DNA from: an uncultured Candidatus Saccharibacteria bacterium
GTDB taxonomy: Bacteria > Patescibacteriota > Minisyncoccia > UBA6257 > 2-01-FULL-56-20
Length of the DNA stretch: 64,000 nt
Assembly: GCA_964374065.1 (NCBI GenBank)
Contig: CAYJWW010000002.1
Location: forward strand, 4,153 to 68,152
Reading direction: 5' to 3'
Both the position numbers and the translations under genes were made by a program. Within the stretch, counting starts at the first letter, position 1. Every line of letters begins with the position of its first letter. The notes below the pieces were generated by a model that saw nothing but the letters and a program-made list of their open reading frames with translations, was not told where the DNA came from and did no database searches. This document shows, one piece after another, positions 14,584 through 60,422 of the stretch.

Positions 14584-17470
<2,887 letters not shown>

Positions 17471-17516
17471 TGCAGTTTGGATTTTATCTCTAATTCTGGA
17501 TTCCATTTTCTAGATT

Positions 17517-18035
17517 CTATGTATCGAGCGTCCTCGGACTCACAGTAGTCTGTAGGTGAATAACGCTCTCGTCAACGCCGCGCTCTCGCGCGCTCACGCC
17601 CAAATTTATGACGATCCGCGGCTGCACGTTATCCCCGACCGCATTGCCGATCGGCCGGAAGGTCAGATAGCGGATATTCACGTTGTCGGCCGTGATCCGC
17701 GCGAAGGCGCCTCCTCCAACCCGCCGCTCGATCCCTCCGTCGGATACCCCGCCTCCTTTCCTGTATGTAACGACTTCACCTGCGGCATTTTTGAACGCAA
17801 GCTCATTTGAGGTGCACGTCTGACCGTTCACGCAGAAGTCAAACCCGGTCCGGACCTCCCGATTCATCTGCTCGAGCGCCAAGCTCATATTGCTGTTCGC
17901 GGAAAGGAGCGCTGAATTCTGGCGTTGCGTTTTAAGCGCGTTCACGAATCCGCCGACCGCGATCGTCACGCCAACCGAAAAAAGCGCGATCGCGACGAGC
18001 AATTCCACGAGCGTAAAGCCGCGGCGGCGTTCCAT
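17517..18035 (-). CDS. type IV pilin-like protein (minor pilin or pseudopilin)
   Basis: Class III signal MERRRG|FTLVELLVAIALFSV with cleavage Gly, Phe+1 and Glu+5; 172 aa. Confidence 0.75.
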   Translation of the reverse strand: MERRRGFTLVELLVAIALFSVGVTIAVGGFVNALKTQRQNSALLSANSNMSLALEQMNREVRTGFDFCVNGQTCTSNELAFKNAAGEVVTYRKGGGVSDGGIERRVGGGAFARITADNVNIRYLTFRPIGNAVGDNVQPRIVINLGVSARERGVDESVIHLQTTVSPRTLDT

Positions 18036-18079: not shown

Positions 18080-19372
18080 CTACGGCCTGATCTCTTTTAA
18101 TTTCCCTCCGCTTGATTCAAACGCTCGAACTGTCGTCGTGGCTGTCGCGTTCGCGCCGCCCCCCTGCCCCGCGCACGTGATCGTATAGGTGGTGGATTGG
18201 GTGGGCTGTACGGTCGTCGTGCCGTTCGCGGGGACGGAGCCGACCGCGGGAGCGATGGCGCAGGAAGAGACGCGTTCGCAGGTCCAGGAAAGGGTGGAGG
18301 ACTTGGGGGGCGGGATCACGAGGCGGTCGGGGAAGGCGGTGAAGCTCGTGCATGTGGGGGCGCAGTCCGAGGCGCGGTCGCACTCGTTGGGGCCGGAGCC
18401 GGGGATCGTGGCGCAGGAGTTGAACTGGCAGACGCGCTTCGTGCAGAGGGGCACCCGGAAGGAGGTGCTTGGGCTGTGGGCGCCGTTGAAGACTCGGGCA
18501 TAGTAGGTCACGCCGGGCTGGAGCGAGAGCGTGTCCGACTGCTGGGGCCAGATGCCCCTGAAGTTCTCTCCGTTCGTCGATTGGGAGAGAGACTGCTTGT
18601 TATAGAAGGAACCGAAGCCCGGGTCGTCGTCGATGTCCACGTAATAGCCGAAGCCGGGGTTGGGGCTGCCGGACCAGGAGATCGCGATCTGGTCGTTGTA
18701 CGGAGAGACGGTGCAGGCGGGGAGGCCGGAGACCGTGGGGCCGGAGGGAGCGTAGGAGCCTTGGGAGTAGTAGGAACCCTGGGAGTAGCCGGGAGCGTAG
18801 GTGCCTTGGGAGTAGTAGGAGCCTTGGTAGGAGCCCTGTGAGTAACCGGGAGCGTAGGTGCCTTGGGCGTAGTAGTACCCCTGGGCGTAGTAGTAACCTT
18901 GGGTGTAGTAGTACCCCTGGGCGTAGTAGTAGCCCTGGGCGTAACCGGGAGCGTAGGTGCTTTGGGCGTAGTAGTACCCCTGGGCGTAGTAATAGCCTTG
19001 GGTGTAGTAGTACCCCTGAGCATAGTAGTACCCTTGGGCGTAATAATATCCTTGGCTATAGTAATAACCCTGGCCGTAGTAATAACCTTCGGCGTAGGCC
19101 GGAGGGGGGGCGCACGCGCAATCCTGGCCAGATTGGCAATATGAGCCGCCGCACGGTTCGATATCCCAAGGCTTGTCTTCGCAATAGGGCTCGCCGTAGT
19201 CGCAGCTGCATTGAAATGATCCGAGTGGATAGCATGCGCCCTGCGGTGGGTTGACGGTCGGATCGCAATAGCCCTGCGATTCGCACGTAACCCATGTAGC
19301 CGCGAGGAGCGCATGGGGCACGCCCGCCAAAGCAAGGAGAGCAAGAACAAAAATAACGCGATCTGGTTTCAT
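18080..19372 (-). CDS. secreted Cys-rich protein with (QGYYY[AST])n Tyr/Gly repeats and two C-terminal FN3/Ig-like domains (paralog A)
   Basis: 430 aa with signal peptide MKPDRVIFVLALLALAGVPHALLA, a Cys-rich N-terminal region, about 20 GYYYAQ-type repeats, and a C-terminal ~285 aa identical to paralog B. Confidence 0.7.
   Translation of the reverse strand: MKPDRVIFVLALLALAGVPHALLAATWVTCESQGYCDPTVNPPQGACYPLGSFQCSCDYGEPYCEDKPWDIEPCGGSYCQSGQDCACAPPPAYAEGYYYGQGYYYSQGYYYAQGYYYAQGYYYTQGYYYAQGYYYAQSTYAPGYAQGYYYAQGYYYTQGYYYAQGYYYAQGTYAPGYSQGSYQGSYYSQGTYAPGYSQGSYYSQGSYAPSGPTVSGLPACTVSPYNDQIAISWSGSPNPGFGYYVDIDDDPGFGSFYNKQSLSQSTNGENFRGIWPQQSDTLSLQPGVTYYARVFNGAHSPSTSFRVPLCTKRVCQFNSCATIPGSGPNECDRASDCAPTCTSFTAFPDRLVIPPPKSSTLSWTCERVSSCAIAPAVGSVPANGTTTVQPTQSTTYTITCAGQGGGANATATTTVRAFESSGGKLKEIRP
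18084..18942. repeat. direct repeat copy 1 (about 859 bp, essentially 100% identical to 20853-21711)
   Basis: The ORF-track artefact ORFs 18117-18383, 18189-18503 and 18197-18841 have translations identical to those at +2769. Flanks were checked by eye. Confidence 0.9.
18760..19095. repeat. in-frame tandem array of about 18-nt units encoding GYYY[AST]Q within paralog A
   Basis: Reiterated gcgtagtagta(c/g)cc(c/t)tggg units on the plus strand. Confidence 0.8.
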
Positions 19373-19929
19373 TGATTGGAAGGATATGCGGTGATTGAAA
19401 AACTCGTGGAGCTTGCTTCTTGAGCGAGAACCATATCGACACGCACAAGGAAACTCTCGTCTTGAATGACGAGGACTGCCGAATCCTTCGTGTTCCTTCC
19501 CTCCCGAAATTTATACCCAGCGCCCGCCGCCAATCCTCTCACTTGATCGCGCGCCCCTACCACGTCCGAAGCGAGTCTCACAAACACGACGTAGCCCCTC
19601 TTACCATCTTCAAATGTCGCCGAGAATGCTTGGGTTGATGTCCCATTCCCCGGAACGAGCGCGAGGAGCGAATTCGGGGCGGCATCCAAACCGACCTCCA
19701 TCCTATTTAAAACTTTTGGCATCTGGGTTTTCCCTACGCTCTGAAGAAGATCTACGGATTTTGTCGGGGAAAGCGGCGCATCGGCTGAACCTTTCGGGTT
19801 CGAATTTTTGACCGGCAATCCTCCTTGAATGCGAAAAATGAGATAGATGACCGCCGCGGCTGCGATCAGTCCGATAACAATCGTGGTCTCTTTTTGCTTT
19901 CCGCCGGACGCTTTTTGAAGCTCGAGCAT
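19369..19929 (-). CDS. membrane-anchored hypothetical protein, translationally coupled to repeat protein A
   Basis: 186 aa with an N-terminal TM helix (IVIGLIAAAAVIYLIF). Its stop overlaps the start of 18080..19372 by 4 nt. Confidence 0.5.
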   Translation of the reverse strand: MLELQKASGGKQKETTIVIGLIAAAAVIYLIFRIQGGLPVKNSNPKGSADAPLSPTKSVDLLQSVGKTQMPKVLNRMEVGLDAAPNSLLALVPGNGTSTQAFSATFEDGKRGYVVFVRLASDVVGARDQVRGLAAGAGYKFREGRNTKDSAVLVIQDESFLVRVDMVLAQEASSTSFSITAYPSNQ

Positions 19930-20006
19930 TGCGACAATTATACTTCGTTCCGCGCGCCCTGCGAAGAAGGTTTAAGGGAGGCCTTGTGGCCTCCCTTCGG
20001 GAGATT

Positions 20007-20750
20007 CTAGTCCGGAACCCAGACGGTTTTGCCGGACACGGCGTACGCGACCTGCGAAGGGTCCGTGTTTTTGATCACGCCCCACCAGATCCCGGCAGGA
20101 CTTCGGGAGAGCCGCACATCCGGCGGGTTTCCCGTCATCGTCCCCCATGTCCACCCGGTGAACTGGGTACAAGCGGGCCCGAAAGCGCTTCCCGATCCGC
20201 GGGAACCCTCCGGGATGAGCGCGCAGGCTCTCGCATCCTCCTCTCGTGCAAAGAGGTAGAGGTCCTTCCGGATCGGAGAGCGGCTCGTAATCAGTTGGAA
20301 CTTGAGCGTCCCCCGTTCCACGGCCGGTGTCGCCGGAAAAACCATGGCTCCGCCAGCCGCAAGCGTCGTTGTGGGAATTACGGTCTCGAACGGATTTTCC
20401 GCAACGACGGGGGCAAGCGCTACATTCTGTTCCGAGGCAGGAATGGTAAGAGTCCAATCCTGAGTCACGAATCCGGGCTTTTCGAACTGGATCCTGCTCT
20501 CGCCTCCCGGAACCCCGCTTATGACGTATCTCCCGTCAGATGCGGTCTTCGCAGCAAGTCCCATGCCGGCGCCGGAGACGAGAGACACGTTTACCTCGCC
20601 CAGCGGTTCGTTCGTCGCGGCGCTCCGCACTATGCCGCGCACCTCATGAAACTGCGTGGGGCTTGTCGGACCATCTTTTCTGCCGCACGCGGTCAAGGCC
20701 GCGAGAAGCAGAACGGCGCGTATCGCGTGCAAGCGCATTCTTGTCCTCAC
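20007..20750 (-). CDS. lipoprotein with a carboxypeptidase-regulatory-like (CarboxypepD_reg) beta-sandwich domain
   Basis: Lipobox LAALTAC, motif DGRYVISGVPGGESRIQFEKPGF; SD AAGGAGG lies upstream. Confidence 0.6.
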   Translation of the reverse strand: MRTRMRLHAIRAVLLLAALTACGRKDGPTSPTQFHEVRGIVRSAATNEPLGEVNVSLVSGAGMGLAAKTASDGRYVISGVPGGESRIQFEKPGFVTQDWTLTIPASEQNVALAPVVAENPFETVIPTTTLAAGGAMVFPATPAVERGTLKFQLITSRSPIRKDLYLFAREEDARACALIPEGSRGSGSAFGPACTQFTGWTWGTMTGNPPDVRLSRSPAGIWWGVIKNTDPSQVAYAVSGKTVWVPD

Positions 20751-20796
20751 GGCACCCTCCTTGTATGGTATTCACGTGTTGCGTTTCGCTGAAAAC

Positions 20797-20825
20797 ATTA
20801 TACGAAATAATCTGCTTTAACGCAA
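20797..20825 (-). promoter_or_regulatory. candidate sigma70 promoter for the lipoprotein gene (minus strand: TTGCGT, 17-nt spacer, TATAAT)
   Basis: Reverse complement of 20797-20825 reads TTGCGTtaaagcagattatttcgTATAAT, about 50 nt upstream of the start codon. Confidence 0.35.
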
Positions 20826-20842
20826 GGCAGACTTTTATGCTC

Positions 20843-22375
20843 CTACTGTCCGGGCCTGATCTCTTTTAATTTCCCTCCGCTTGATTCAAACGCTCGAACT
20901 GTCGTCGTGGCTGTCGCGTTCGCGCCGCCCCCCTGCCCCGCGCACGTGATCGTATAGGTGGTGGATTGGGTGGGCTGTACGGTCGTCGTGCCGTTCGCGG
21001 GGACGGAGCCGACCGCGGGAGCGATGGCGCAGGAAGAGACGCGTTCGCAGGTCCAGGAAAGGGTGGAGGACTTGGGGGGCGGGATCACGAGGCGGTCGGG
21101 GAAGGCGGTGAAGCTCGTGCATGTGGGGGCGCAGTCCGAGGCGCGGTCGCACTCGTTGGGGCCGGAGCCGGGGATCGTGGCGCAGGAGTTGAACTGGCAG
21201 ACGCGCTTCGTGCAGAGGGGCACCCGGAAGGAGGTGCTTGGGCTGTGGGCGCCGTTGAAGACTCGGGCATAGTAGGTCACGCCGGGCTGGAGCGAGAGCG
21301 TGTCCGACTGCTGGGGCCAGATGCCCCTGAAGTTCTCTCCGTTCGTCGATTGGGAGAGAGACTGCTTGTTATAGAAGGAACCGAAGCCCGGGTCGTCGTC
21401 GATGTCCACGTAATAGCCGAAGCCGGGGTTGGGGCTGCCGGACCAGGAGATCGCGATCTGGTCGTTGTACGGAGAGACGGTGCAGGCGGGGAGGCCGGAG
21501 ACCGTGGGGCCGGAGGGAGCGTAGGAGCCTTGGGAGTAGTAGGAACCCTGGGAGTAGCCGGGAGCGTAGGTGCCTTGGGAGTAGTAGGAGCCTTGGTAGG
21601 AGCCCTGTGAGTAACCGGGAGCGTAGGTGCCTTGGGCGTAGTAGTACCCCTGGGCGTAGTAGTAACCTTGGGTGTAGTAGTACCCCTGGGCGTAGTAGTA
21701 GCCCTGGGCGTAGTAGTAGCCTTGGCTGTAGCCGCAACCGTAGCAGCCCTCCGCATAGTAATAGCCTTGTCCGTAGTAATAGCCCTCTGTGTAGTAATAC
21801 CCTTGGGCATAGTAATAGCCCTCAGCATAGTAGTAGCCTTGAGTATAGTAGTAGCCTTGAGCATAATAGTAGCCCTCCCCATAATAGTAGCCTTCGCTGT
21901 AGTCTGGATAGAAGCCGGTGATGCTCACATCCACCCGCACTTCGGCGTCATCCACGGCCGCCCATGTATAAATCCCGTATCTTCCGACTCCTCCTGTCCC
22001 CTCGCTTCCGCTTGTATACCCGTTGTACGGATGGACCCCTCCATACTCGTAGCCGCAACTGCCCCCAGAGCAGTTGAACCAATAGCACTGCCCCGCGCCG
22101 TCGGACTGCCGGGACCAACACGCGACGGACTGAATATACGAACCGCCGTGGCGATGGCCGCTTATATTGTAGGAAAATTCCGCGGAACCGTAGTTGTCCC
22201 GCGGGAGCCACTCCCAATTCCCGCCGCAATTTCTATCGTCTCCGTGCTTGATGCAAAGCCAATAAAAACTCGTGCTGTCGCTCCCCGCGCGCGCCACGTA
22301 GGGCACGGCGATCGACATCGCCACCGCGGACACTGCGACGAATATCAGTGCTACCTTGGTCTGCGCGGTATTCAT
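20843..22375 (-). CDS. secreted protein with (QGYYY[AST])n Tyr/Gly repeats and two C-terminal FN3/Ig-like domains (paralog B)
   Basis: 510 aa with signal peptide MNTAQTKVALIFVAVSAVAMSIAVPYVARA, a distinct N-terminal domain, a long EGYYYAQGYYYT... repeat array, and a C-terminal ~285 aa identical to paralog A. Confidence 0.7.
   Translation of the reverse strand: MNTAQTKVALIFVAVSAVAMSIAVPYVARAGSDSTSFYWLCIKHGDDRNCGGNWEWLPRDNYGSAEFSYNISGHRHGGSYIQSVACWSRQSDGAGQCYWFNCSGGSCGYEYGGVHPYNGYTSGSEGTGGVGRYGIYTWAAVDDAEVRVDVSITGFYPDYSEGYYYGEGYYYAQGYYYTQGYYYAEGYYYAQGYYYTEGYYYGQGYYYAEGCYGCGYSQGYYYAQGYYYAQGYYYTQGYYYAQGYYYAQGTYAPGYSQGSYQGSYYSQGTYAPGYSQGSYYSQGSYAPSGPTVSGLPACTVSPYNDQIAISWSGSPNPGFGYYVDIDDDPGFGSFYNKQSLSQSTNGENFRGIWPQQSDTLSLQPGVTYYARVFNGAHSPSTSFRVPLCTKRVCQFNSCATIPGSGPNECDRASDCAPTCTSFTAFPDRLVIPPPKSSTLSWTCERVSSCAIAPAVGSVPANGTTTVQPTQSTTYTITCAGQGGGANATATTTVRAFESSGGKLKEIRPGQ
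20853..21711. repeat. direct repeat copy 2 (about 859 bp)
   Basis: See copy 1; the constant offset is 2769 nt. Confidence 0.9.
21530..21905. repeat. in-frame tandem array of about 18-nt units encoding GYYY[AST]Q within paralog B
   Basis: Reiterated gtagtagta(g/c)cc(c/t)tg(g/a)g(c/t) units on the plus strand. Confidence 0.8.
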
Positions 22376-22884
22376 TCCCTCGAAGGCGGGGTGATGATGC
22401 GATATGTCACTACCGATGCGACCGGGTTGCTCGACCGGTATATCGTTGCGGGGAATGCCGCCTCAACGGAGACGCCGCCGGCGCCGATCATGGACCGGAG
22501 ATCATCCAAGGACCCTGTGGCATCATTCCGCGGGAGGTCGGCCAGACTCAAGGTGCCGGTCGCGCCGCGCGCGGCAAGCTCTTTCCATGAAGGAAGTTGA
22601 AGCCCGATCTTTTTATACGAGGTCCCTTCCCCGACGCGGAAGGTAAACTCCCGCGATTCCAGGAGATCTTGCGGCGCAACGCCCTGCAGCTCGTAGACGC
22701 CCTTCAGCGTAATCGCGTCGCCCTCTATTCTCAGGGGGCTTCCGATGAATTTTCTGATCTCTATCGGTTTTCGCGTCGAAACAAAATAGCCGCTTCCGAT
22801 CAGGAACAATCCGGCGGTTGCGGCGGCCACCATCACAAGATTCCGCACCGCCAGCTTCTTCTTCGATGCCGCGAAATCATCCAT
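22372..22884 (-). CDS. membrane-anchored hypothetical protein, translationally coupled to repeat protein B
   Basis: 170 aa with an N-terminal TM helix (LVMVAAATAGLFLIGSGYFV). Its stop overlaps the start of 20843..22375 by 4 nt. Confidence 0.5.
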   Translation of the reverse strand: MDDFAASKKKLAVRNLVMVAAATAGLFLIGSGYFVSTRKPIEIRKFIGSPLRIEGDAITLKGVYELQGVAPQDLLESREFTFRVGEGTSYKKIGLQLPSWKELAARGATGTLSLADLPRNDATGSLDDLRSMIGAGGVSVEAAFPATIYRSSNPVASVVTYRIITPPSRE

Positions 22885-22936
22885 ATATTGATTATAGGCG
22901 AAATGGTGCGGGCCGCAATGGATGCGGCCCGGCTGT

Positions 22937-23569
22937 TTATTGCGATACGACTCGTAATCCCAACATCACGCGCCAATCGGTGGGCACGAGGAGATCCTGG
23001 CCGCTCTCATTGAAGCGCGCCGTGGCCTGGGCGGTGTTCGTCACGCCTCCGCTCGGGAGCGCCATGTCGAAGACGACCGCGATGCAGACGGGCGAGCGCC
23101 ACGCGGGGTCGCTCTCATCGAAGGGCGGTCCCTGCGTTCCTGCAGTCCGCCCAACGGCACTGAGCTGCATGGAAATCTTCCGGCCGGGAACGGCGGGATG
23201 GGCCACGCAAAGGCGGACCGTGTGTGTATCGCGATGACTCCGCAACAGATACGTCTTCTCTGTCCCGGGAACTCCGAGAGAAGCGTCGTCTGTGGGCGAA
23301 AGCTCTCGCGTGCAGGCCGCGGGATCATTCGGACAATTCCCTTCATAGACCCCGTACGTTGCCGAAGCGCGCACGCCGGGACCGGGTCCCGGCGGAAGAT
23401 TCCCCGGTCCGACCGGCCCCTGCACGCACGAGGGCCCCGTGGGAGTTCCGATGCAGTTCGGGCTCTTGTCCTCCTTCTTGCCGCAGCCCGAACCGAGGGT
23501 CCCGAAGGCGAGCGCGAGCGCGGAGGCGAGAAGCACGCTCCGCGTCCGCCCGAGTTCCGTATGACGCAT
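22937..23569 (-). CDS. putative secreted protein or lipoprotein (Cys- and Gly/Pro-rich)
   Basis: Start chosen at MRHTELG, preceded by AGGAGG. Signal peptide followed by LGSGC; 211 aa. The longer 331-aa ORF is judged to be upstream read-through. Confidence 0.5.
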   Translation of the reverse strand: MRHTELGRTRSVLLASALALAFGTLGSGCGKKEDKSPNCIGTPTGPSCVQGPVGPGNLPPGPGPGVRASATYGVYEGNCPNDPAACTRELSPTDDASLGVPGTEKTYLLRSHRDTHTVRLCVAHPAVPGRKISMQLSAVGRTAGTQGPPFDESDPAWRSPVCIAVVFDMALPSGGVTNTAQATARFNESGQDLLVPTDWRVMLGLRVVSQ

Positions 23570-23658: not shown

Positions 23659-24198
23659 CTAGTTCTGCGGCCGCCAATTGAAGAAATGGTCCTCGAGATT
23701 GATGTCGTATTCTCCGCCGCGGCTTGACCAAGAAACAATGGAGTTCACCTTGATCTCGTTCCCGCCCACGAGTGCGACGCGGATGGTCCGCGTAAAGGGC
23801 GTCACGACCGAACCGCCGTAGCTGTAGAGGTTCTGCGACGGATCGAAAAGGAGGAACCTGCTCTGCGTCGCTTCCAAGAGCGCGCTTGCATACTGCACTT
23901 CGAAATCCCCGTTCGAGAAACCGCTGTTCCACGGGCGGTTCTGGATTACGTTCGTATCGATGATATTCTTCACCACCTCGAGTCCCTCGGCCGCGAGATA
24001 CGTCGCAGTGTAATTATCGGATACGACGCGATTCAGGCTGATCGAACGCGAAAGAAGAGTGAGAATGCCCAAAAAGCCGACGGTCAAAATCCCCAGCGCG
24101 ACGAGCGATTCGACGACGACTTGCCCCCGGCGCGCCCGTCGGCGCGCAGAAAATGGAAAATAGAAAGCGGAAAGCGGAAAACGGCGCGTTTGTTCCAT
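23659..24198 (-). CDS. type IV pilin-like protein with a long basic leader (MEQTRRFPLSAFYFPFSARRRARRG|QVVVE...)
   Basis: Gly-Gln junction with Glu at +5 followed by a hydrophobic helix; 179 aa. Its 5' module is shared with 17048..17470. Confidence 0.55.
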   Translation of the reverse strand: MEQTRRFPLSAFYFPFSARRRARRGQVVVESLVALGILTVGFLGILTLLSRSISLNRVVSDNYTATYLAAEGLEVVKNIIDTNVIQNRPWNSGFSNGDFEVQYASALLEATQSRFLLFDPSQNLYSYGGSVVTPFTRTIRVALVGGNEIKVNSIVSWSSRGGEYDINLEDHFFNWRPQN

Positions 24199-24254
24199 TG
24201 CAGTTTGGATTTTGTCTCTAATTCTGGATTCTATTTTCTAGGCTCTAGATTCTA
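24124..24254. repeat. conserved ~125-nt 5' module, copy 2
   Basis: Same sequence as copy 1 with a 7-nt internal duplication (tctaggctctag). Confidence 0.85.
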
Positions 24255-24821
24255 AAATGTGATCTGCCCCGCCGTGCTTACCCGGATCGTTATCGAGGCC
24301 GACCCGTCCGCGGTTTGGAGATAAATATTCCCGCTCCCTCCCGGCAATAGCGACCCCCCGCTCGAGATGTATGTTTTTGGTTCCGGCGGCACAAAGAGCA
24401 CCGCGTCGAGCCGGTTCGCTCCGTTGCCGTACGCCACGGCCTGAGTCAACGGGAACGATTCGAGCCTGGTGTATTTGGAACCGTCGGCGGGGTCGATCGC
24501 GGAAATGCTCGAGCAGTCGCTCACCTTATATTGGAACAGTTCGTATGAGTTCCCGGCGTAGTCGACTCGGAAACCGAACCCACAGGGACGCGAGGCATCC
24601 ACATAGGTGGCAATCGCCATCGATTTGGACTTCAGGATCAGCTGCGCGATCTTTGCTTCTTCGGTATAGAGCGCAACCTGCGCGCGCCCCGTCGACGAGT
24701 AGAGAATGAGCGAACTCGAGAGGATGCCCATGATGCCTACGACGATCAGAAGTTCGAGGAGCGTGTAGCCGCGGCGAGAAGAACGGAAGTTTTGGCGTGG
24801 AATTCGGCGGAATGCGCTCAC
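24252..24821 (-). CDS. type IV pilin-like protein (pseudopilin)
   Basis: SSRRG|YTLLELLIVVGIMGIL class III signal; 189 aa. Confidence 0.75.
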   Translation of the reverse strand: MSAFRRIPRQNFRSSRRGYTLLELLIVVGIMGILSSSLILYSSTGRAQVALYTEEAKIAQLILKSKSMAIATYVDASRPCGFGFRVDYAGNSYELFQYKVSDCSSISAIDPADGSKYTRLESFPLTQAVAYGNGANRLDAVLFVPPEPKTYISSGGSLLPGGSGNIYLQTADGSASITIRVSTAGQITF

Positions 24822-25716: not shown

Positions 25717-26187
25717 CTAGAAAATGATGCAGTAGATCGTATCGGATGCCGCCGTGCCGCAATCGGTGTTCCCGTAGTTCGATTGCGTGCCGTCGATATC
25801 CGTCCGGAGCGCGGGGTTGTTCCCGTCTTCGAGGTCGGCTCTCAGAAGGTACCCGTTGCGGCTCGTGTTCGGCGCATAGGTGTAATTCCTATTCGAGTTA
25901 GGATCGTTAGGAATCTTGTTCACGCCAATCGTGGCGCTCACAAGGTCGGTCTCAAGCGCCGCCCACGTGGCCGAGTTCGGGTATTGGCCGTTCTTCTGGA
26001 AGTAAAGCTCCAGCGCGGTCTGTACCTGTTTCAAGTCCGCAATGCGCCGCGCGTCCCGGCCAGTCCGCTGGGTGGGGCCCAGCCCCACGAGCACGATCGA
26101 CGCCAGAACACCGATGATCGCGACCACGATCAGCATTTCGATGAGCGTAAACCCCTGCTTCTGCTCCGAATTTTTCATCGCTTTCAT
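25717..26187 (-). CDS. type IV pilin (probable major pilin)
   Basis: MKAMKNSEQKQG|FTLIEMLIVVAIIGVLASIV is a canonical class III signal. Start chosen at M15 of the 170-aa ORF. C-terminal Cys pair (TDCG...YCIIF). Confidence 0.8.
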   Translation of the reverse strand: MKAMKNSEQKQGFTLIEMLIVVAIIGVLASIVLVGLGPTQRTGRDARRIADLKQVQTALELYFQKNGQYPNSATWAALETDLVSATIGVNKIPNDPNSNRNYTYAPNTSRNGYLLRADLEDGNNPALRTDIDGTQSNYGNTDCGTAASDTIYCIIF

Positions 26188-26304
26188 TGTACGTTTTATC
26201 ATACCATACCGCCAATCGTTCTTTTCCACAGCCCCTCCAGCCTGGAACCTGAAACCCGGAACAGGATACGAAAGGTGCGGTTTTACGAACTATGTCCTGC
26301 TTCG

Positions 26305-30789: not shown

Positions 30790-31374
30790 CTACGGGTTCT
30801 GGTAGTATGTCACGACCGCCATGTCGTAGGCGAAGAGATCCTGGTTGGGCTTTCCGGCCGGCTGCACAGTGATCGTCCGCAGATCGAAGATGCGGATGTT
30901 CGTTTCGACGTTCTTCAGAAACTTTTTCATATCGTCATATGCGCCCACGAGGCGCATCTGGATCGTCAGCATGCCGATCGGTTTTATGAGAGTATTCGCG
31001 TCTTTGGGGTCGCTCCCCTTGAGATTCTGGAACGCTTCGGTGGAGACCGCGAATGATTGGGGCACAAGCCCGTTCGCCGTCGCCATGCCGCTCAACTGTG
31101 CGATCGCCTGCGCGGCTTCCGGCTTAAGCGGCAGCACCAGAGAAACGACTTCCTGGATCTTTTCGTTGCCTTGGTACGCGCTCACCAGCTGCTTCACTCG
31201 CTCGATCACTTCCCGCTGTTTCCCGACGAACGCGCGGCGGCTCGCCTCCTCTCCCCGAATCCGCAGCGATTCCTGATATGCGGGCTGGATGAAATCGAAG
31301 AACAGCACGAATGCCGATACGATGAACACAAGGGCGAGCACCGAACTGAAAAGCCGCTTGGTGGATTGTTTCAT
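30790..31374 (-). CDS. pilO: PilO-like pilus assembly protein
   Basis: 194 aa with an N-terminal TM helix and coiled-coil. Assigned by its position after pilM and pilN. Confidence 0.5.
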   Translation of the reverse strand: MKQSTKRLFSSVLALVFIVSAFVLFFDFIQPAYQESLRIRGEEASRRAFVGKQREVIERVKQLVSAYQGNEKIQEVVSLVLPLKPEAAQAIAQLSGMATANGLVPQSFAVSTEAFQNLKGSDPKDANTLIKPIGMLTIQMRLVGAYDDMKKFLKNVETNIRIFDLRTITVQPAGKPNQDLFAYDMAVVTYYQNP

Positions 31375-31967
31375 TGGTTCGTTGAGGTTGCCGCCGTTAC
31401 GCCATCCGTTTCCGGCGACGCACCCTTAAAAATACCGGGCTTCAAAAATACCGAGAGGTCGAATTGCCACAGGCCCGCGTTTCCCAGGGTCATGCTGTTT
31501 AAATTCACTCGATCCACTTCTGCTTGCTGTTCCAAAAACCCGGTTTGTTCCGCAATGTCGTTCGCCGATTTCGCGGTCCCTCCAAGTGAAAGCTCTCGAC
31601 CGCCGACATTCAGCACGAACTTCGTGTACGTGACGTTCTTATGCGTTGAACGCTCGAGCCAATCGAAAAGCGGGGAGGCGAGCGCGTGCCGGTCGAGAAG
31701 CGTCTTCAGGTTCGCGAGCTGGGAATAGAACGCGATGATCTTCGCCTGATCGTCAAATGGAATTTCCTGGCTGAACGTCTGAATTTGCAGGTCAAGCTTG
31801 TCGACCATGGACTGAAGGAAAGGTCCGTATCCGAACACGAGCCCGATGTGCACGAAAAGCGCGATAAGGAATATCGTCCCCGAAAACATAAGAAGCCGGC
31901 TCGACCACCCGGGGGTACGAACCGGCTCCCGCGCAAGTTGCTCGATGGCTTTTGGAGGAAGTGGCAT
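31371..31967 (-). CDS. pilN: PilN-like pilus assembly protein
   Basis: 198 aa with a short cytoplasmic N-terminus, TM helix and periplasmic coiled-coil. Overlaps pilM and pilO by 4 nt each. Confidence 0.5.
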   Translation of the reverse strand: MPLPPKAIEQLAREPVRTPGWSSRLLMFSGTIFLIALFVHIGLVFGYGPFLQSMVDKLDLQIQTFSQEIPFDDQAKIIAFYSQLANLKTLLDRHALASPLFDWLERSTHKNVTYTKFVLNVGGRELSLGGTAKSANDIAEQTGFLEQQAEVDRVNLNSMTLGNAGLWQFDLSVFLKPGIFKGASPETDGVTAATSTNQ

Positions 31968-31968
31968 G

Positions 31969-33087
31969 CTAAGAAAATTCTTTAAGTGCGAGTCCCAACG
32001 CGACGCTCATCGACGGGTTGAGCTCCCCGACAAGCGGCTCGATGACGGGAGCGTACTCGAACCGGAGGAACGGGGTCGCTTTCACGGTGGGCATCCCGAA
32101 CTGCTGCGCCGCATATTTCTCGATGCCCAGTAGATTTGCTCCGCCGCCCGAGAGTATCACGCGTTCGATTCGAGGCACGGAAACCAGCTGGTTCGCATAG
32201 TTGACCAGCGCCCGCTTCACCTCCCCAATGATAACATCCAGAAAAGGCAGCATTATTGTGGATAACTCGTAATCTGCGCCCGATCCTGATATGCCTCGCT
32301 CGCGCTTGAGTTCCTCCGCACGGAGCGGATTGATATTCAGGCTCGAGGCAAGCGCTTGCGTAAGCGATGCGCCCGCATAATCGGTCTGCGCAGTGTATTT
32401 GAGCTGTCCCTTATCCACGACCGCGATTGCGGTGGATCGGCTTCCTATATCTACGATGCACGTAGGCGTCGGGTCCGCTCCCACAAGGCTCCTTGCAAGC
32501 CCAAGCGCCTCGATCTCAAGCGACATGAGCGTAAGGCCCGCCGCGGAAAAAATCTTCTGATATTTACGGATCGTCTCCTGTGGAACCGAAATAAGAAGCA
32601 GCTGCTGCATGCGCGCGCCGGACGCGTCTTCATACTCGCCCACCTTAAGCCAATCTATCGCCACTTCGGATATGGGCAGAGGGATATACTGCTTCGCCTG
32701 ATAGGACATCGCCTCTCCGATCTCGCCCTTGGACATCTCGGGAAAGTTCAAAACCGTAATGAATGAAGCGAATCCGGGGAGCGACGCCACCACCGCGTTC
32801 GCCTTCGGCTTCATCCGGCGCAAGGCCTCCTTCAGATACTCGGCGATTTCCTGATCGAACAGCTTTAGGCTGCTCGTCTGGAACGCGGTGTTCGATCGAG
32901 TGAGCGATCCCTGACTCTCGAGAAATGCGTAATTCACGAGCCGCGGGAGCTCTTTCGCTTTGTCCACCTCGACGATTTTCAGCGAGGTCGTCCCTATATC
33001 GACGCCGAGGTAAGATGGCCTGATCTCCTGCTTGAGTATATTGAAGAAATTAATCGCCGAGAGCGGATTGCGCATTTCTTTACGCAT
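31969..33087 (-). CDS. pilM: type IV pilus assembly ATPase-fold protein PilM (actin-like)
   Basis: YLGVDIGTTSLKIVEV phosphate-1 motif and actin/FtsA-like fold length (372 aa). Confidence 0.8.
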   Translation of the reverse strand: MRKEMRNPLSAINFFNILKQEIRPSYLGVDIGTTSLKIVEVDKAKELPRLVNYAFLESQGSLTRSNTAFQTSSLKLFDQEIAEYLKEALRRMKPKANAVVASLPGFASFITVLNFPEMSKGEIGEAMSYQAKQYIPLPISEVAIDWLKVGEYEDASGARMQQLLLISVPQETIRKYQKIFSAAGLTLMSLEIEALGLARSLVGADPTPTCIVDIGSRSTAIAVVDKGQLKYTAQTDYAGASLTQALASSLNINPLRAEELKRERGISGSGADYELSTIMLPFLDVIIGEVKRALVNYANQLVSVPRIERVILSGGGANLLGIEKYAAQQFGMPTVKATPFLRFEYAPVIEPLVGELNPSMSVALGLALKEFS

Positions 33088-41267: not shown

Positions 41268-44069
41268 ATGCAGTATGGACCTCTTAAGCGTGCCTTCAAA
41301 AAACGGCGGGCGCATGTCGCCGTCGTAGGCCTTGGGTATGTCGGGATTCCGACCGTTTTGGCGATGGTTCGCGCCGGCATACGCGTCACGGGCATCGACA
41401 TCGATAAAAAACGCGTCGCCGATCTGAACCGAGGCAAAAGCTTCATCGCGGAAATCCCCGATGCGGCGATACGGGAAGCGCAAAAAAAATTCCGCGCGAC
41501 CACGGACTGGAAGGAGCTCAGGAAGGCAAATGCCGTCCTGATCGCGGTCCCTACGCCGCTTACGAGGAATAAAACCCCCGACACCTCCGCGATCGAAACG
41601 GCGGCGAAAAACATTTCAAAATCTCTGCGAAAAGGGACTCTGGTCGTTCTGGAAAGCACGACGTATCCGGGGACGACGGAGGAACTTCTGCGACCGATTC
41701 TCGAGAAATCCGGCCTCAGGGCGGGGAAGGATTTCTATCTCGCGTTCGCGCCGGAGCGCGTGGATCCCGGAAGCAAACATCGTTTCACCGATATTCCGAA
41801 AGTGGTGGGCGGTATTGACGCACGCTCGACCGAGCTTGCGGCGGCGCTCTATGGAAGCTTTTTGAGAGGGGTTCATCGCGTATCTTCGCCGCGCGCCGCC
41901 GAGATGACCAAACTCCTCGAAAACATCTTCCGGCTCGTGAATATCTCGCTCGTGAACGAATTGAAGATGATCGCGGACAAAATGGGAATCGACTTTTGGG
42001 AAGTGATAGAGGCGGCGAAAACCAAACCGTATGGCTTCATGCCGTTCTACCCCGGCCCCGGCGTCGGCGGCCACTGTCTCGAGAAACACCAACGCGTCGT
42101 AATTGAAGAAAAGAGGGAAGTGAATGCATACACGATGGAGGAACTCTATCGAAAGTATGCCGATGCGTGCGTGAAACGTCAGCCGGCATTGGTTGCGGCG
42201 GCACAAGAAAATGTCTCTGACGGGCACACTCTTGCTTTTTCAAAAAATACACATCATTCAGTAAATTCCCCTCTCGCTCCTTTTCGCGTTGCCTCGTTTG
42301 ATTCTAATAAAGGCACAATTTCCTTTGAGCGGGTTGACTTTATCTCGAAACGAGAGAGTAATCACGTCCTTAACATTAAATGCCATTACAACCGAGAGCT
42401 TCGCGTCACGGACGAGCATCCTCTTTATGTGTGGGACGAAGGGACTAAGACACTACGAGTCAAGTGGGCAAAAGACCTCCGGCCGGGTGAGTTTCTGGTA
42501 TATCCTCGGTTACTTCCTCAATCAACTCGAGTTCCCGCGTATGACCTTATCGCAGCACTCCAAAAACAATTCCCATCGCTTATACCACGATATCGAGTCA
42601 AACTTAAGGAAAGGCTCTGGCGCGACTACAAAGAAAATCTCGACCCTTGCTTCGTAGGAGACGATAAAAAACAGGATTACCTGAAAAACAACTCTATTCC
42701 TTTAGAGGAGTACCTTCGCATCGAGAAAAATCTTCCTGTCCCGAGAACAAAAATCCTTCTCGTAAGCGGCCGTGGGTCTTCGTTCGGCACGCTACCTGCT
42801 ATTCTTTCGTTTGATTCCGAATGGGCGAGGCTTTTGGGGTATTACTTAAGCGAGGGGTGTATCACTGAAGACGCGAAAACAATGGGCATAAGATGGACAT
42901 TCCACTCTAAAGAGAAGGAGTACATAGAAGATGTGGAGGCTATACTGCGCAATAAAGGGATCGCTTTTTCTACCTACCAAGATGAACAGTGGCGGAGTTT
43001 TCATATCAAAGTATCTTCAACGCTTCTTGCGCTTTTCTTCCAAGACATTCTTCATACCGGCGTTGACTGCTACACCATGCGCATACCCCAAGAGCTTTTT
43101 ATGAGCGCGCCAGAATTTCGAAAAGAAGTGCTAGCTGGAATTTTACGCGGCGATGGTGGGGTGTGGCGCACTAATCGTCCAAACTCTTATCGCAAAAACG
43201 GCCGTTCTTACACGCATCACAATAACTCTATCGAACTGTGTTATTTCACGTCTTCTCCGATACTCTTCGAACAAGTACAACTCATATTGAATGAGCTGGG
43301 CGTAATCTATAAACTCGAACGGCGACCGGGCCTCATAAAGATGAAAGGGCCCGAAAATGCACGGACCCTCGCTGTGCTTTTTTCGGGAGCAAAACGACAT
43401 CTCGTCGAAGATTATCTTCGACAGATCTCTAAAAGACCTCATTATGATTATGCCCGCACCACTGACGGCTATGTCCTGATTCGGGTAAAAACAATAACAA
43501 GAATCGAGGAAGTTCAAGATGTATATTCGTTAGAAGTGAACCGCCATAGCACATTCCTTACTAATGGAGGTCTTGCGATTCACAACTGCATCCCCTTAGA
43601 CCCTTTTTATCTCTCATGGAAAGCCCGCGAATATAATTTCTTCACCCGCTTCATCGACCTCGCCGGAGAGATCAATGAACTCATGCCGCATCACGTGGTA
43701 ACAAAGGTCATCTGGGCCCTGAATGCCCGCGGCAAAGCCGTGCGAGGCGCAAAAATACTCGTGCTCGGCGTCGCCTACAAGAAAGACATCGATGACCCGC
43801 GCGAATCACCCGCGATCCCCGTGATCTGGGACCTCTTGCGCAAGGGCGCGCGGGTCGTCTACAATGACCCCTTCGTTCGCACTCTGCGCGTGAATGAAAA
43901 AGAGCTTCGCTCTTCTCCCCTCACGAAAGACGCCGTGAAGGACGCCGACTGCGTCATAATCCTCACCGATCACGGCGCCTACGATTACCCGATGCTCGCG
44001 CGCCACGCAAAATGCCTCGTCGATACGCGCGGAGCGATCAAGACGCGCGGACCAAACATCATTTCGTAA
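41268..44069 (+). CDS. UDP-sugar 6-dehydrogenase (WbpA/TviB-like nucleotide-sugar dehydrogenase) carrying a 504-aa intein; the spliced enzyme would be 429 aa
   Basis: N-terminal Rossmann motif VVGLGYVGIP. The catalytic motif is split as GPGVGGH | intein | CIPLDPFYL, which rejoins to GGHCIPLDP. C-terminal UDP-binding domain is present. Confidence 0.85.
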   Translation: MQYGPLKRAFKKRRAHVAVVGLGYVGIPTVLAMVRAGIRVTGIDIDKKRVADLNRGKSFIAEIPDAAIREAQKKFRATTDWKELRKANAVLIAVPTPLTRNKTPDTSAIETAAKNISKSLRKGTLVVLESTTYPGTTEELLRPILEKSGLRAGKDFYLAFAPERVDPGSKHRFTDIPKVVGGIDARSTELAAALYGSFLRGVHRVSSPRAAEMTKLLENIFRLVNISLVNELKMIADKMGIDFWEVIEAAKTKPYGFMPFYPGPGVGGHCLEKHQRVVIEEKREVNAYTMEELYRKYADACVKRQPALVAAAQENVSDGHTLAFSKNTHHSVNSPLAPFRVASFDSNKGTISFERVDFISKRESNHVLNIKCHYNRELRVTDEHPLYVWDEGTKTLRVKWAKDLRPGEFLVYPRLLPQSTRVPAYDLIAALQKQFPSLIPRYRVKLKERLWRDYKENLDPCFVGDDKKQDYLKNNSIPLEEYLRIEKNLPVPRTKILLVSGRGSSFGTLPAILSFDSEWARLLGYYLSEGCITEDAKTMGIRWTFHSKEKEYIEDVEAILRNKGIAFSTYQDEQWRSFHIKVSSTLLALFFQDILHTGVDCYTMRIPQELFMSAPEFRKEVLAGILRGDGGVWRTNRPNSYRKNGRSYTHHNNSIELCYFTSSPILFEQVQLILNELGVIYKLERRPGLIKMKGPENARTLAVLFSGAKRHLVEDYLRQISKRPHYDYARTTDGYVLIRVKTITRIEEVQDVYSLEVNRHSTFLTNGGLAIHNCIPLDPFYLSWKAREYNFFTRFIDLAGEINELMPHHVVTKVIWALNARGKAVRGAKILVLGVAYKKDIDDPRESPAIPVIWDLLRKGARVVYNDPFVRTLRVNEKELRSSPLTKDAVKDADCVIILTDHGAYDYPMLARHAKCLVDTRGAIKTRGPNIIS
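42075..43586 (+). mobile_element. intein with a LAGLIDADG homing-endonuclease domain, inserted at the catalytic Cys codon of the dehydrogenase
   Basis: Starts with Cys (CLEKH...) and ends with His-Asn followed by a +1 Cys. Block B TDEHPL; two LAGLIDADG motifs (LLGYYLSEGCI, LAGILRGDGGV). GC is markedly lower than in the exteins. Confidence 0.8.
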
Positions 44070-51667: not shown

Positions 51668-51676
51668 CATGAATAT

Positions 51677-52763: not shown

Positions 52764-52767
52764 CAAA

Positions 52768-60243: not shown

Positions 60244-60422
60244 TCGCCGCCCTGCATGCGGATTCCATTCTACTAAGAACGGCGGATAAGTCCAGTTCTG
60301 CGGCCTATTGGCCGTATGGGACTTATTGGACTTATATATCTGATTGGCTTAGGGGCTGATCAGACCGGCAAACACAAAGCGGCCCCTTGCGGGGCCGCTT
60401 GTGCGCGTTCTAACCCAAGGGG

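What the first reader, a model, noticed from the sequence alone, without database searches (positions are those of the whole stretch)
18080..22884. Tandem pair of two-gene cassettes encoding secreted (QGYYYA)n Tyr/Gly-repeat proteins, each coupled to a small membrane-anchored partner
Two paralogous secreted proteins (430 and 510 aa) combine a Cys-rich N-terminal domain, a long hexapeptide repeat array (QGYYYA, QGYYYT, QGSYYS, QGTYAPGYS) and two C-terminal FN3/Ig-like domains. Each gene overlaps by ATGA with an upstream gene for an N-terminally membrane-anchored ~180-aa protein. The two cassettes flank a CarboxypepD_reg-domain lipoprotein gene and sit between minor-pilin genes and the type IV pilus cluster. 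I do not recognise GYYYAQ arrays from any named family. The architecture suggests a pilus- or envelope-associated adhesin or matrix module, possibly tyrosine-cross-linkable or amyloid-like.
Basis: partly seen in the sequence, partly recalled or inferred. Interest (0 to 1): 0.85.

Follow-up and report, generated by a model that had tools for sequence, protein, structure and literature searches.

The report
Tyrosine-rich surface proteins with membrane partners
Two secreted proteins of an uncultured ultra-small (Parcubacteria-type) bacterium carry a roughly 120-residue stretch that is 40% tyrosine, and each is paired with its own small membrane-anchored partner inside the type IV pilus gene cluster; none of the parts belongs to a described family, and function can only be inferred.

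Summary
The genes are real and lie where reported, all on the minus strand. The picture of "two paralogous cassettes" is only half right.

- **Shared part.** The two long proteins (430 and 510 aa) share a (Q/E)GYYYx array, predicted disordered. They also share a beta-rich domain, a small Cys module, an Ig-like domain and a conserved end, GGKLKEIRP. This part is 100% identical at DNA level over 860 nt, which points to recent gene conversion.
- **N-terminal domains.** These are unrelated to each other.
- **Partners.** The two upstream partners are also unrelated. Each partner family tracks its own N-terminal domain in other Parcubacteria-like contigs: 6 of 6 loci for family 2, and 4 of 5 informative loci for family 1, usually with a 4-nt overlap.
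- **Tyr array.** It is a movable low-complexity module. Homologues carry poly-Gly or Cys-rich linkers in the same place.
- **Pilus linkage.** It recurs but is not universal.

Best reading (about 0.4): a sortase-independent display system. A membrane partner holds the cognate N-terminal domain, the Tyr-rich spacer crosses the envelope, and the Ig-plus-tail module is exposed.

Docking on the pilus tip, a chaperone role for the partner, and an amyloid or cross-linked matrix all remain open. These are new uncharacterised families and are moderately interesting.

The parts
22372..22884 (-). partner2: bitopic membrane protein (K-rich N-terminus, TM helix, extracytoplasmic OB-like beta-barrel). It is the founding member of a 6-member family that always lies directly upstream of an N-domain-B protein.
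20843..22375 (-). YYY-B, a 510-aa secreted protein: signal peptide, N-domain B, Tyr array, beta-rich domain, Cys mini-module, Ig-like domain, tail ...GGKLKEIRPGQ.
   Evidence: ATGA overlap with partner2.
21896..22285 (-). N-domain B (aa 31-160), all-beta, with conserved C..RGHND..C and G.R.GGS motifs. It is the part that co-occurs with the partner2 family.
   Evidence: Alignment with P0001 and P0003. Homologous N-domains in L006, L009 and L010. AF2 pLDDT is about 55, with weak jelly-roll/TNF-like Foldseek hits.
21515..21895 (-). Tyr array of YYY-B (aa 161-287; 40% Y, 20% G, 12% Q).
   Evidence: AF2 pLDDT is about 20.
20007..20750 (-). Lipoprotein with a CarboxypepD_reg domain, between the two cassettes.
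   Evidence: PF13620 E=3.6e-11, with a lipobox-like N-terminus.
19369..19929 (-). partner1: bitopic membrane protein of a second, unrelated small family (14 distant relatives, 18-31% identity).
   Evidence: No Pfam or PDB hit. Promoter-like site at 19965-19937.
18080..19372 (-). YYY-A, a 430-aa secreted protein: signal peptide, Cys-rich N-domain A, Tyr array, then the same C-terminal module as YYY-B, ending GGKLKEIRP.
   Evidence: ATGA overlap with partner1.
19091..19300 (-). N-domain A (aa 25-94) with 8 conserved Cys. It is the part that co-occurs with the partner1 family.
   Evidence: Alignment with the N-termini of L011:5545-8367 and L013:671-1465. Also present in L028:2463-3974.
18746..19090 (-). 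Tyr array of YYY-A (aa 95-209; 39% Y).
18084..18943 (.). Copy 1 of the 860-nt segment that is 100% identical to 20853-21712. It runs from inside the array to the last codons, which fits a gene-conversion tract.
   Evidence: Independent short-read contigs L003 and L004 break about 40 nt into the shared segment.
20853..21712 (.). Copy 2 of the identical 860-nt segment.
18083..18364 (-). Ig-like domain plus conserved C-terminal tail FExxGGKLKE[IV]xP in YYY-A. The same module is at 20846-21133 in YYY-B.
   Evidence: AF2 pLDDT 75-91, with the tail forming a terminal strand. The tail is conserved in P0003, L006, L016 and L024. phrog_2155 Ig-like repeat, E=3e-10.
22937..23569 (-). 210-aa lipoprotein immediately upstream of partner2. 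No detectable relatives among the lipoproteins of other loci.
   Evidence: Called as a 210-aa gene in L003/L004. BLASTP comparisons were negative.
17048..18035 (-). Downstream flank: pilin (17517-18035, GFTLVELL motif) and PilX-like pseudopilin (17048-17506), followed by LigA.
   Evidence: TIGR02532 and N_methyl hits. The PilX-like gene is 60-66% identical to those that follow the tail-bearing genes in L016 and L024.
23659..24821 (-). Upstream flank: PilV/PilX-like pseudopilin (23659-24198) and pilin (24252-24821), followed by PilD, pilin and PilC/T/B.

Best explanation
The region encodes two cell-surface display units of a Parcubacteria-type (Liptonbacteria-related) bacterium.

Each unit is a translationally coupled pair. 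The first gene encodes a bitopic membrane protein with its N-terminus inside and a small globular domain outside. The second encodes a Sec-secreted modular protein whose N-terminal domain is the cognate of that partner.

Proposed mechanism (inferred, not shown):
- The partner's ectodomain binds the N-terminal domain and so holds the secreted protein on the cytoplasmic membrane without sortase or a lipid anchor.
- The Tyr/Gly/Gln-rich, intrinsically disordered array of about 120 residues acts as a flexible, self-sticky or glycan-sticky spacer through the wall or S-layer.
- The shared distal module (beta-rich domain, Cys mini-module, Ig-like domain, GGKLKE[IV]xP tail) is what the cell presents outward. 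It presumably serves attachment, and perhaps contact with the type IV pilus encoded on both sides.

The distal module is kept identical in the two genes by gene conversion, while the heads and partners stay distinct.
For: **Shown**
- Signal peptides and ATGA coupling.
- The partner2 family lies directly upstream of an N-domain-B protein in 6 of 6 loci from at least 5 samples, although the downstream parts of those proteins differ.
- The partner1 family lies next to, or one gene from, an N-domain-A protein with 8 conserved Cys in the window, L011, L012/13 and L028.
- The two partner families are unrelated. The pairing therefore follows the N-terminal domain, not the repeat or the C-terminus.
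- Partner2 folds confidently as a TM helix plus an OB-like barrel, a common protein or ligand-binding fold, with no catalytic motif.
- The array is predicted disordered. Homologues have poly-Gly or Cys-rich linkers in its place. It occurs N-terminally, internally or C-terminally in other proteins.
- Synonymous variation between identical peptide units shows selection on the peptide.
- The C-terminal tail is conserved across about 40%-identical homologues.

**Inferred**
- Binding between partner and N-domain.
- Topology, from the positive-inside rule.
- The spacer role.
- Outward display.
Against: - No interaction evidence of any kind. Co-occurrence would equally fit a chaperone or maturation role.
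- The N-domain B model is weak (pLDDT about 55). Its faint resemblance to jelly-roll lectin/TNF-like folds would suit a distal binding head rather than a membrane-proximal dock.
- A strongly conserved extreme C-terminus suggests that the C-terminus, not the N-terminus, might be the attachment point.
- L027 has a partner1-like gene with no N-domain-A gene nearby.
- The families are tiny (6 and 15 members), so statistics are thin.
- There are no expression data.
Confidence: 0.4

Rival explanations
1. Pilus-associated adhesins. The long proteins are exported and dock on the type IV pilus (tip minor-pilin complex, e.g. the PilX-like pseudopilin) through the Ig domain and the conserved C-terminal GGKLKE[IV]xP peptide. 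This would be functionally like PilY1/PilC, or like the T4b-pilus-bound secreted factors TcpF and CofJ. The membrane partner would hold or prime them before loading.
For: - Both cassettes lie between pseudopilin genes inside a complete T4P cluster.
- Tail-bearing genes sit immediately upstream of the PilX-like gene in L016 and L024, as YYY-A does in the window.
- Partner1-like genes are within 3 kb of PilB/PilC/pilins in L011 and L027, at only 21-31% identity to partner1.
- The GYYY-repeat protein P0002 starts 2 nt after a 296-aa pilin gene.
Against: - Family-2 cassettes in L001, L002 and L005/L006 are not near pilus genes, yet L006 keeps the same tail.
- The L016/L024 synteny also includes LigA and comes from close relatives (LigA 62% identity), so it may be inherited gene order only.
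- No prepilin motif and no PilY1/PilC domain.
- The PilY2 hit is one of many generic OB-fold hits.
Confidence: 0.2
2. The partners are dedicated membrane-tethered folding or export chaperones for their cognate N-terminal domains, for family 1 working with DsbA on the 8-10-Cys domain. They are not permanent anchors. The mature long protein is released or attached by other means.
For: - A DsbA-like gene lies directly upstream of the partner1-like gene in L011, L027 and L028.
- N-domain A has 8 invariant Cys.
- Translational coupling gives matched synthesis.
Against: - No DsbA gene is next to the cassettes in the window, based on Pfam scans of the neighbours.
- Partner2's cognate domain is not especially Cys-rich.
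- No homology to any known chaperone family.
Confidence: 0.2
3. The Tyr array itself is the functional element. It would form an amyloid-like, phase-separating or dityrosine-cross-linked matrix or glue on the envelope, or bind glycans by CH-pi stacking. The folded domains would be accessories.
For: - 39-40% Tyr with regular Gly/Gln, and the peptide is conserved despite synonymous drift.
- The same repeat type recurs in otherwise unrelated secreted Parcubacteria-like proteins: P0001, P0002, P0005 and P0008, the last named 'putative cell adhesion protein'.
- From general knowledge, the composition resembles Tyr-rich low-complexity domains that self-associate.
Against: - AF2 gives no ordered solenoid (pLDDT about 20).
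- Close homologues with the same head, Ig domain and tail lack the array altogether (L006, L024).
- No oxidase or peroxidase in the window.
- No curli, Fap or TasA-type accessory genes.
Confidence: 0.12
4. Part of the picture is an assembly artefact. The 860-nt perfect duplicate arose when a metagenome assembler collapsed or mis-joined a repeat, so one of the two long genes is chimeric.
For: - 100% identity over 860 nt that ends inside a repeat array.
- Exact YYY-A and YYY-B sequences are absent from the protein collection although both partners are present on a 112-kb NCBI contig.
- Short-read contigs break at the repeat.
Against: - The break of L003/L004 about 40 nt into the shared segment is what a true multi-copy repeat gives.
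- Both 3' junctions differ (CCG TAG against CCC GGA CAG TAG) and lead into different genes.
- The related Liptonbacteria MAG also has two separate tail-bearing genes, one next to the PilX-like gene and LigA and one with a partner2 homologue.
Confidence: 0.08

Closest known systems
PilY1 / PilC tip-associated adhesins of type IV pili (with the small PilY2)
   Same: A large non-pilin secreted protein, plus a small companion, is encoded among the minor-pilin genes of a T4P cluster. An adhesion role is presumed.
   Different: No PilY1/Neisseria_PilC beta-propeller domain and no sequence similarity. The companions here are TM-anchored and fall into two unrelated families. The pairing also occurs outside pilus clusters.
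TcpF (Vibrio cholerae) and CofJ (ETEC): secreted factors encoded in T4b pilus operons that bind the tip minor pilin through a terminal peptide (from general knowledge)
   Same: A Sec-secreted protein is encoded in a pilus operon and has a short conserved terminal peptide that could be a docking signal.
   Different: The docking peptide of those proteins is N-terminal, and they belong to diderm T4b systems. There is no homology, and docking here is untested.
Gram-positive wall-spanning surface adhesins (LPXTG proteins with Ser-Asp, Pro-rich or G5-E stalks)
   Same: Modular architecture: head domain, low-complexity or repetitive stalk, Ig-like domains. Display on a monoderm-type envelope.
   Different: No LPXTG, no hydrophobic C-terminal segment, and no sortase seen. 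The anchor is proposed to be a separate cognate membrane protein acting at the N-terminal end. The stalk chemistry (40% Tyr) is different.
Tyr/Gly-rich low-complexity domains (FUS-type [G/S]Y[G/S] domains, resilin, mussel foot proteins, plant Gly/Tyr-rich wall proteins; from general knowledge)
   Same: Extreme Tyr plus Gly/Gln composition, predicted disorder, and potential for pi-stacking, self-association or oxidative cross-linking.
   Different: The array is bacterial and extracytoplasmic, with a strict hexapeptide period (Q/E-G-Y-Y-Y-x). There is no evidence for DOPA or dityrosine chemistry or for phase separation, and no homology.
Modular type IV pilins (pilins with grafted adhesive modules, e.g. 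Streptococcus sanguinis PilB/PilC; L029 pilin with an Ig-like C-terminal module)
   Same: Ig-like or lectin-like modules are associated with T4P genes in monoderm-like bacteria.
   Different: YYY-A and YYY-B have Sec signal peptides, not prepilin leaders. They are separate proteins, not pilin fusions.

Membership tests
Sortase-anchored LPXTG surface proteins | C-terminal LPXTG-like motif followed by a hydrophobic segment and a basic tail | tested here: not met
   The proteins end ...FESSGGKLKEIRP(GQ), with no hydrophobic segment.
Sortase-anchored LPXTG surface proteins | Sortase gene in the genome or neighbourhood | tested here: inconclusive
   No sortase domain among about 55 window ORFs scanned with Pfam. 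The rest of the genome was not available.
Type IV pilins / pseudopilins | Prepilin leader ending in G, followed by F/M-T-L-x-E and a hydrophobic helix (N_methyl, TIGR02532) | tested here: not met
   No N_methyl or TIGR02532 hit for YYY-A, YYY-B, partner1 or partner2, whereas the neighbours 17517-18035, 24252-24821 and 25717-26229 do hit.
PilY1/PilC pilus tip adhesins | C-terminal PilY1/Neisseria_PilC beta-propeller domain | tested here: not met
   No Pfam or NCBIfam hit at E<=1. AF2 shows an Ig-like sandwich, not a propeller.
PilY1/PilC pilus tip adhesins | Gene located within the minor-pilin operon | tested here: met
   Flanked by pseudopilin genes on both sides.
Functional amyloids (curli CsgA/B, Fap, TasA) | Family-specific repeat or domain and dedicated accessory/secretion genes (CsgG/E/F, FapF, TapA/SipW) | tested here: not met
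   No Pfam or NCBIfam hits. No such genes among the neighbours.
Functional amyloids (curli CsgA/B, Fap, TasA) | Ordered cross-beta or beta-solenoid repeat structure | tested here: inconclusive
   AF2 gives pLDDT about 20 and no secondary structure for the array with a 5-sequence alignment. Absence of a prediction does not exclude fibril formation.
Collagen-like proteins | Gly at every third residue (G-X-Y)n | tested here: not met
   One Gly per six residues, in (Q/E)GYYYx units.
Ig-like / PKD-like (K319L-like, PF22352) domain proteins | Beta-sandwich domain with sequence similarity to the family | tested here: inconclusive
   The last domain (A 337-430, B 415-510) has AF2 pLDDT 75-91 and is all-beta. 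Its database relatives P0004 and P0007 carry PF22352. It hits phrog_2155 at E=3e-10. The window proteins themselves do not reach any Pfam model at E<=1.
Fibronectin type III | FN3 profile match or confident FN3 fold for the penultimate domain (B aa about 290-385) | tested here: not met
   No Pfam hit and no PDB sequence hit. AF2 pLDDT is 25-38.
PilN/PilO-type bitopic pilus alignment proteins (considered for the partners) | PilN or PilO profile match | tested here: not met
   No hit for partner1 or partner2. Bona fide PilO, PilN and PilM are at 30790-33087.

The most novel reading that the evidence does not exclude
Parcubacteria-type ultra-small bacteria may possess a previously undescribed, sortase-independent surface-display system.

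In it, dedicated bitopic 'receptor' proteins of at least two unrelated families each capture the N-terminal domain of a cognate secreted protein. Interchangeable Tyr-rich disordered stalks and a shared Ig module follow. The conserved C-terminal peptide (GGKLKE[IV]xP, or [QK]EF in other members) would load the distal end onto the type IV pilus tip.

This would physically couple the envelope, the adhesin and the pilus for attachment to host cells.
Probability: 0.15. Interest if true: 0.75.

Novelty: new variant of a known kind. Interest (0 to 1): 0.5.

Why it matters
Ultra-small CPR/Patescibacteria live attached to other cells. Their type IV pili are known to be needed for that attachment in the few cultured Saccharibacteria (PMC9894109, PMC11623550), but the adhesins and the way surface proteins are anchored in these sortase-poor, reduced genomes are largely unknown.

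A conserved 'membrane partner plus cognate secreted protein' pair gives concrete, testable candidates for both. So do a recurrent 40%-Tyr stalk and a conserved C-terminal peptide placed among pseudopilin genes.

The value is limited for now. The families are very small, they are confined to a narrow groundwater lineage, and there are no expression or interaction data.

Tried and rejected
- **Profile and sequence libraries.** Pfam, NCBIfam and PHROGs scans of all five proteins gave nothing for the long proteins' heads and arrays or for the partners. The only hit was the Ig-like repeat of phrog_2155. PDB sequence searches of the partner1 family profile and of the shared C-terminal half found nothing meaningful.
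- **Partner relatedness.** The idea that the two partners are distant homologues was rejected.
- **PilN/PilO identity.** The idea that the partners are PilN or PilO was rejected, because true PilM/N/O lie elsewhere in the cluster.
- **Third conserved component.** Window lipoproteins show no similarity to the lipoproteins of other loci. A metzincin-like lipoprotein recurs only in family-1 loci L011, L012 and L028.
- **Locus scans with the partner2 family.** Scans of genome contigs, metagenome contigs and viral contigs found no further loci. The partner1 alignment was too divergent to scan with.
- **Tail-pattern scans.** Most hits were an unrelated internal motif of Aminicenantes TsaB. True relatives were only L016, L018 and L024. 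There were none in viral contigs.
- **Blocked steps.** afdb50 was unavailable.
- **Weak structural results.** The full-length AF2 model is too weak (mean pLDDT 44.9) to trust the jelly-roll-like hits for N-domain B.
- **Literature.** Searches for Tyr-rich Patescibacteria proteins or QGYYY repeats found nothing relevant.


Full report
**1. What is in the sequence**

All genes of the finding are on the minus strand. In transcription order the region reads:
- pseudopilins at 24252-24821 and 23659-24198
- a 210-aa lipoprotein (22937-23569)
- partner2 (22372-22884, 170 aa)
- YYY-B (20843-22375, 510 aa)
- a CarboxypepD_reg lipoprotein (20007-20750; PF13620, E=3.6e-11)
- partner1 (19369-19929, 186 aa)
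- YYY-A (18080-19372, 430 aa)
- a pilin (17517-18035) and a PilX-like pseudopilin (17048-17506)
- LigA

Both partner/long-gene junctions are ATGA overlaps. The wider cluster holds PilD, a major-type pilin, PilC, PilT, PilB, PilO, PilN, PilM and a ComF-like gene.

**2. The repeat**
- The arrays cover aa 95-209 of A and aa 161-287 of B. They are 39-40% Tyr, 18-20% Gly and 12-15% Gln.
- A has 11 and B has 13 (Q/E)GYYY[AGST] hexapeptides, followed by QGTYAPGYS, QGSYYS and QGSY units.
- Units with the same peptide differ by 2.6-2.9 nt per 18 nt, all synonymous. The array is therefore not a fresh slippage product, and the peptide is under selection.
- The alternative frames (PT-rich, or GVVV on the other strand) are by-products. 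Only this frame gives a signal peptide, folded domains and homologues.

**3. The two long genes are half-paralogues**
- DNA 18084-18943 is 100% identical to 20853-21712. The identical tract starts inside the array and ends at the last codons. The stop regions differ: CCG TAG against CCC GGA CAG TAG.
- The N-terminal domains are unrelated. A has a roughly 70-aa domain with 10 Cys. B has a roughly 130-aa all-beta domain.
- Independent short-read contigs (L003, L004) carry partner2 and the head of YYY-B and break about 40 nt into the shared tract, as expected for a true multi-copy repeat.
- I read this as recent gene conversion of the 3' module. An assembly artefact is a minor rival.
- The exact YYY-A and YYY-B proteins are not in the protein collection although both partners are. 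This may reflect different gene calls and is unexplained.

**4. The partners are two different families, each tied to its own head domain**

The two partners share nothing but a TM helix (hhalign probability 21%).

*Family 2*
- A profile search found five more partner2 relatives at 33-44% identity.
- In every locus the next gene encodes a secreted protein with N-domain B. The two genes overlap by 4 nt or are 4 nt apart. The loci are L001, L002, L005/L006 (a Candidatus Liptonbacteria MAG), L009 and L010.
- The remainder of those proteins varies:
  - P0001 has a GYYY array plus DNDGDG repeats and ends GFQEF.
  - P0003 and the L006 protein have Cys-rich linkers, the Ig domain and the same tail.

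*Family 1*
- An exhaustive phmmer search found 14 distant partner1 relatives at 18-31% identity.
- An N-domain-A protein with 8 aligned Cys follows directly in L011 and in L012/L013. In L028 it lies one gene away.
- L027 has none nearby.
- A DsbA-like gene precedes the partner1-like gene in L011, L027 and L028.

The conserved unit is therefore 'bitopic partner plus cognate N-terminal domain', not the repeat.

**5. Structure**
- Partner2, predicted with a 6-sequence alignment, has pLDDT 77.5. It shows a TM helix (aa 7-36) and an OB-like beta-barrel at pLDDT 85-96.
- YYY-B has mean pLDDT 44.9. By part: array about 20 (disordered), N-domain B about 55 (all-beta), penultimate domain 25-38, last domain 75-91.
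- The last domain is an Ig-like sandwich in which the GGKLKE tail forms a terminal strand.
- Weak Foldseek hits of the head to jelly-roll/TNF-like lectin folds are not reliable at that confidence.

**6. The C-terminal module and tail**
- The module is a Cys mini-module (C-x3-4-C-x5-6-GxG-x2-[EQ]C...C), an Ig-like domain and FExxGGKLKE[IV]xP at the extreme C-terminus.
- It is conserved in P0003, the L006 protein, L016 and L024.
- Pattern scans of 596 Gb of genomes and of the metagenome collection found only these true relatives. The other hits were an internal coincidence in Aminicenantes TsaB. The module is therefore confined to a narrow lineage.
- Other head-bearing proteins end in [QK]EF: L011 NQEEF, L028 DYKEF, P0001 GFQEF. 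This hints at a second tail type.

**7. Pilus linkage**

For:
- The position in the window.
- Tail-bearing genes directly upstream of the PilX-like pseudopilin and LigA in L016 and L024.
- Partner1-like genes beside PilB/PilC/pilins in L011 and L027.
- The GYYY protein P0002 lying 2 nt downstream of a 296-aa modular pilin.

Against:
- Family-2 cassettes in L001 (a mobile-element-rich region), L002 and L005/L006 (between a NUDIX gene and dnaG) are not near pilus genes.
- The L016/L024 synteny comes from close relatives (LigA 62% identity, PilX-like 60-66%), so it may simply be inherited gene order.

The link is suggestive, not established.

**8. Explanation**

The best-supported reading is a sortase-independent display unit, with confidence about 0.4. 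Its parts would work as follows:
- The partner's ectodomain holds the cognate N-terminal domain at the membrane.
- The disordered Tyr-rich array is a spacer.
- The Ig-plus-tail module is exposed.

The array's spacer role rests on three points. It is interchangeable with poly-Gly or Cys linkers in homologues. Its position in other proteins is variable. It is predicted disordered.

What is shown: secretion signals, coupling, co-occurrence, folds and conservation.

What is inferred: binding, topology, spacer function and display.

Rivals:
- Pilus-tip docking through the tail (0.2).
- Partner as a dedicated foldase or chaperone, acting with DsbA in family 1 (0.2).
- The array as the functional glue, amyloid or cross-linked matrix (0.12).
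- Assembly artefact (0.08).

These rivals are not all mutually exclusive.

**9. Comparison with known systems**

These proteins are not members of any of the following, because the defining features were tested and not met (see the membership table):
- LPXTG proteins
- pilins
- PilY1/PilC
- curli, Fap or TasA amyloids
- collagen-like proteins
- PilN or PilO

They work most like Gram-positive stalked adhesins, or possibly like pilus-operon-encoded secreted factors. The differences are a new stalk chemistry and a separate cognate membrane partner. No paper in the searchable library describes such repeats in bacteria.

**10. Verdict**

This is a real feature that was partly misdescribed. It consists of new uncharacterised families in a Liptonbacteria-related Parcubacterium, and I classify it as a new variant of a known kind (modular surface adhesins). 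Interest is moderate at 0.5. There are concrete candidates for CPR adhesion and anchoring, but the families are tiny and there are no functional data.

Noticed in passing
window 41268-44069 (+): The UDP-glucose/GDP-mannose dehydrogenase gene is interrupted by an intein with a LAGLIDADG homing-endonuclease domain (Intein_splicing and LAGLIDADG_3 between the central and C-terminal domains). GC dips locally to 0.49.
   Followed up: no
window 14584-14994 (-): A free-standing 136-aa LAGLIDADG-like ORF overlaps the end of ligA by 4 nt.
   Followed up: no
window 51362-53265 (+): The transketolase appears split into N-terminal and pyrimidine-binding pieces. An unrelated 191-aa Cys-rich ORF (51677-52252) lies between an upstream fragment and the Transketolase_N piece. 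The region at 50-54 kb has low GC (0.47-0.49), which suggests an acquired glycan-synthesis segment.
   Followed up: no
window 57802-63902 (-) and L005 1-3851: A pair made of a large PG_binding_1 surface protein (1159 aa) and a Wzy_C-domain membrane protein (813 aa) is also present in the Liptonbacteria MAG, about 6 kb upstream of its partner2 cassette. Wzy_C proteins include the pilin and protein O-oligosaccharyltransferases (general knowledge), so Tyr/Ser/Thr-rich surface proteins might be glycosylated.
   Followed up: no
window 17048-17506 and 23659-24198 (-): Two PilX/PilV-like pseudopilin paralogues bracket the cassettes. They are 44% identical over 75 aa and share an unusual leader...[12 protein letters not shown](C/R)GQV....
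   Followed up: partly
L011 4263-4994, L027 5268-5981, L028 96-815: A DsbA-like thioredoxin gene lies directly upstream of every partner1-like gene seen on a long contig. A metzincin-like (HExxHxxGxxH) lipoprotein also recurs in L011, L012 and L028.
   Followed up: partly
L011 5545-8367, L028 2463-3974, P0001: Other proteins with the cognate head domains end in a different short conserved C-terminus, [QK]EF-COOH (NQEEF, DYKEF, GFQEF). This may be a second terminal signal in these bacteria.
   Followed up: no
L029 1216-2106: A modular type IV pilin of 296 aa has a pilin domain, a poly-Gly/poly-Thr linker and an Ig-like C-terminal module. It is immediately followed by the GYYY-repeat protein P0002.
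   Followed up: partly
L014, L015, L017, L019-L023, L025, L026: Aminicenantes TsaB-like proteins contain an internal FES[RK]GGKLKEIVP that matches the tail pattern exactly. This is an unrelated coincidence and a warning for motif-only searches.
   Followed up: yes
window 18080-19372 and 20843-22375: The exact 430-aa and 510-aa sequences are not in the 15-billion-protein collection. Both partners are, on a 112,204-bp NCBI contig. The cause may be different start calls or a different assembly of the repeat.
   Followed up: no
window 22909-22931 and 20811-20831: GC-rich inverted repeats lie in the short intergenic gaps: 9 pairs (8 G-C) before partner2, and a terminator-like hairpin just after the YYY-B stop. 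A promoter-like site (TTCGCA-17-TATAAT) lies at 19965-19937 before partner1. The cassettes may therefore be separate transcription units.
   Followed up: no
L001 1-20891: The partner2/head-B cassette of the 322-kb ENA contig lies among serine recombinases, an rve integrase, IS200- and ISL3-type transposases and a TrwB-like coupling protein. This suggests the cassette can travel on mobile elements.
   Followed up: no
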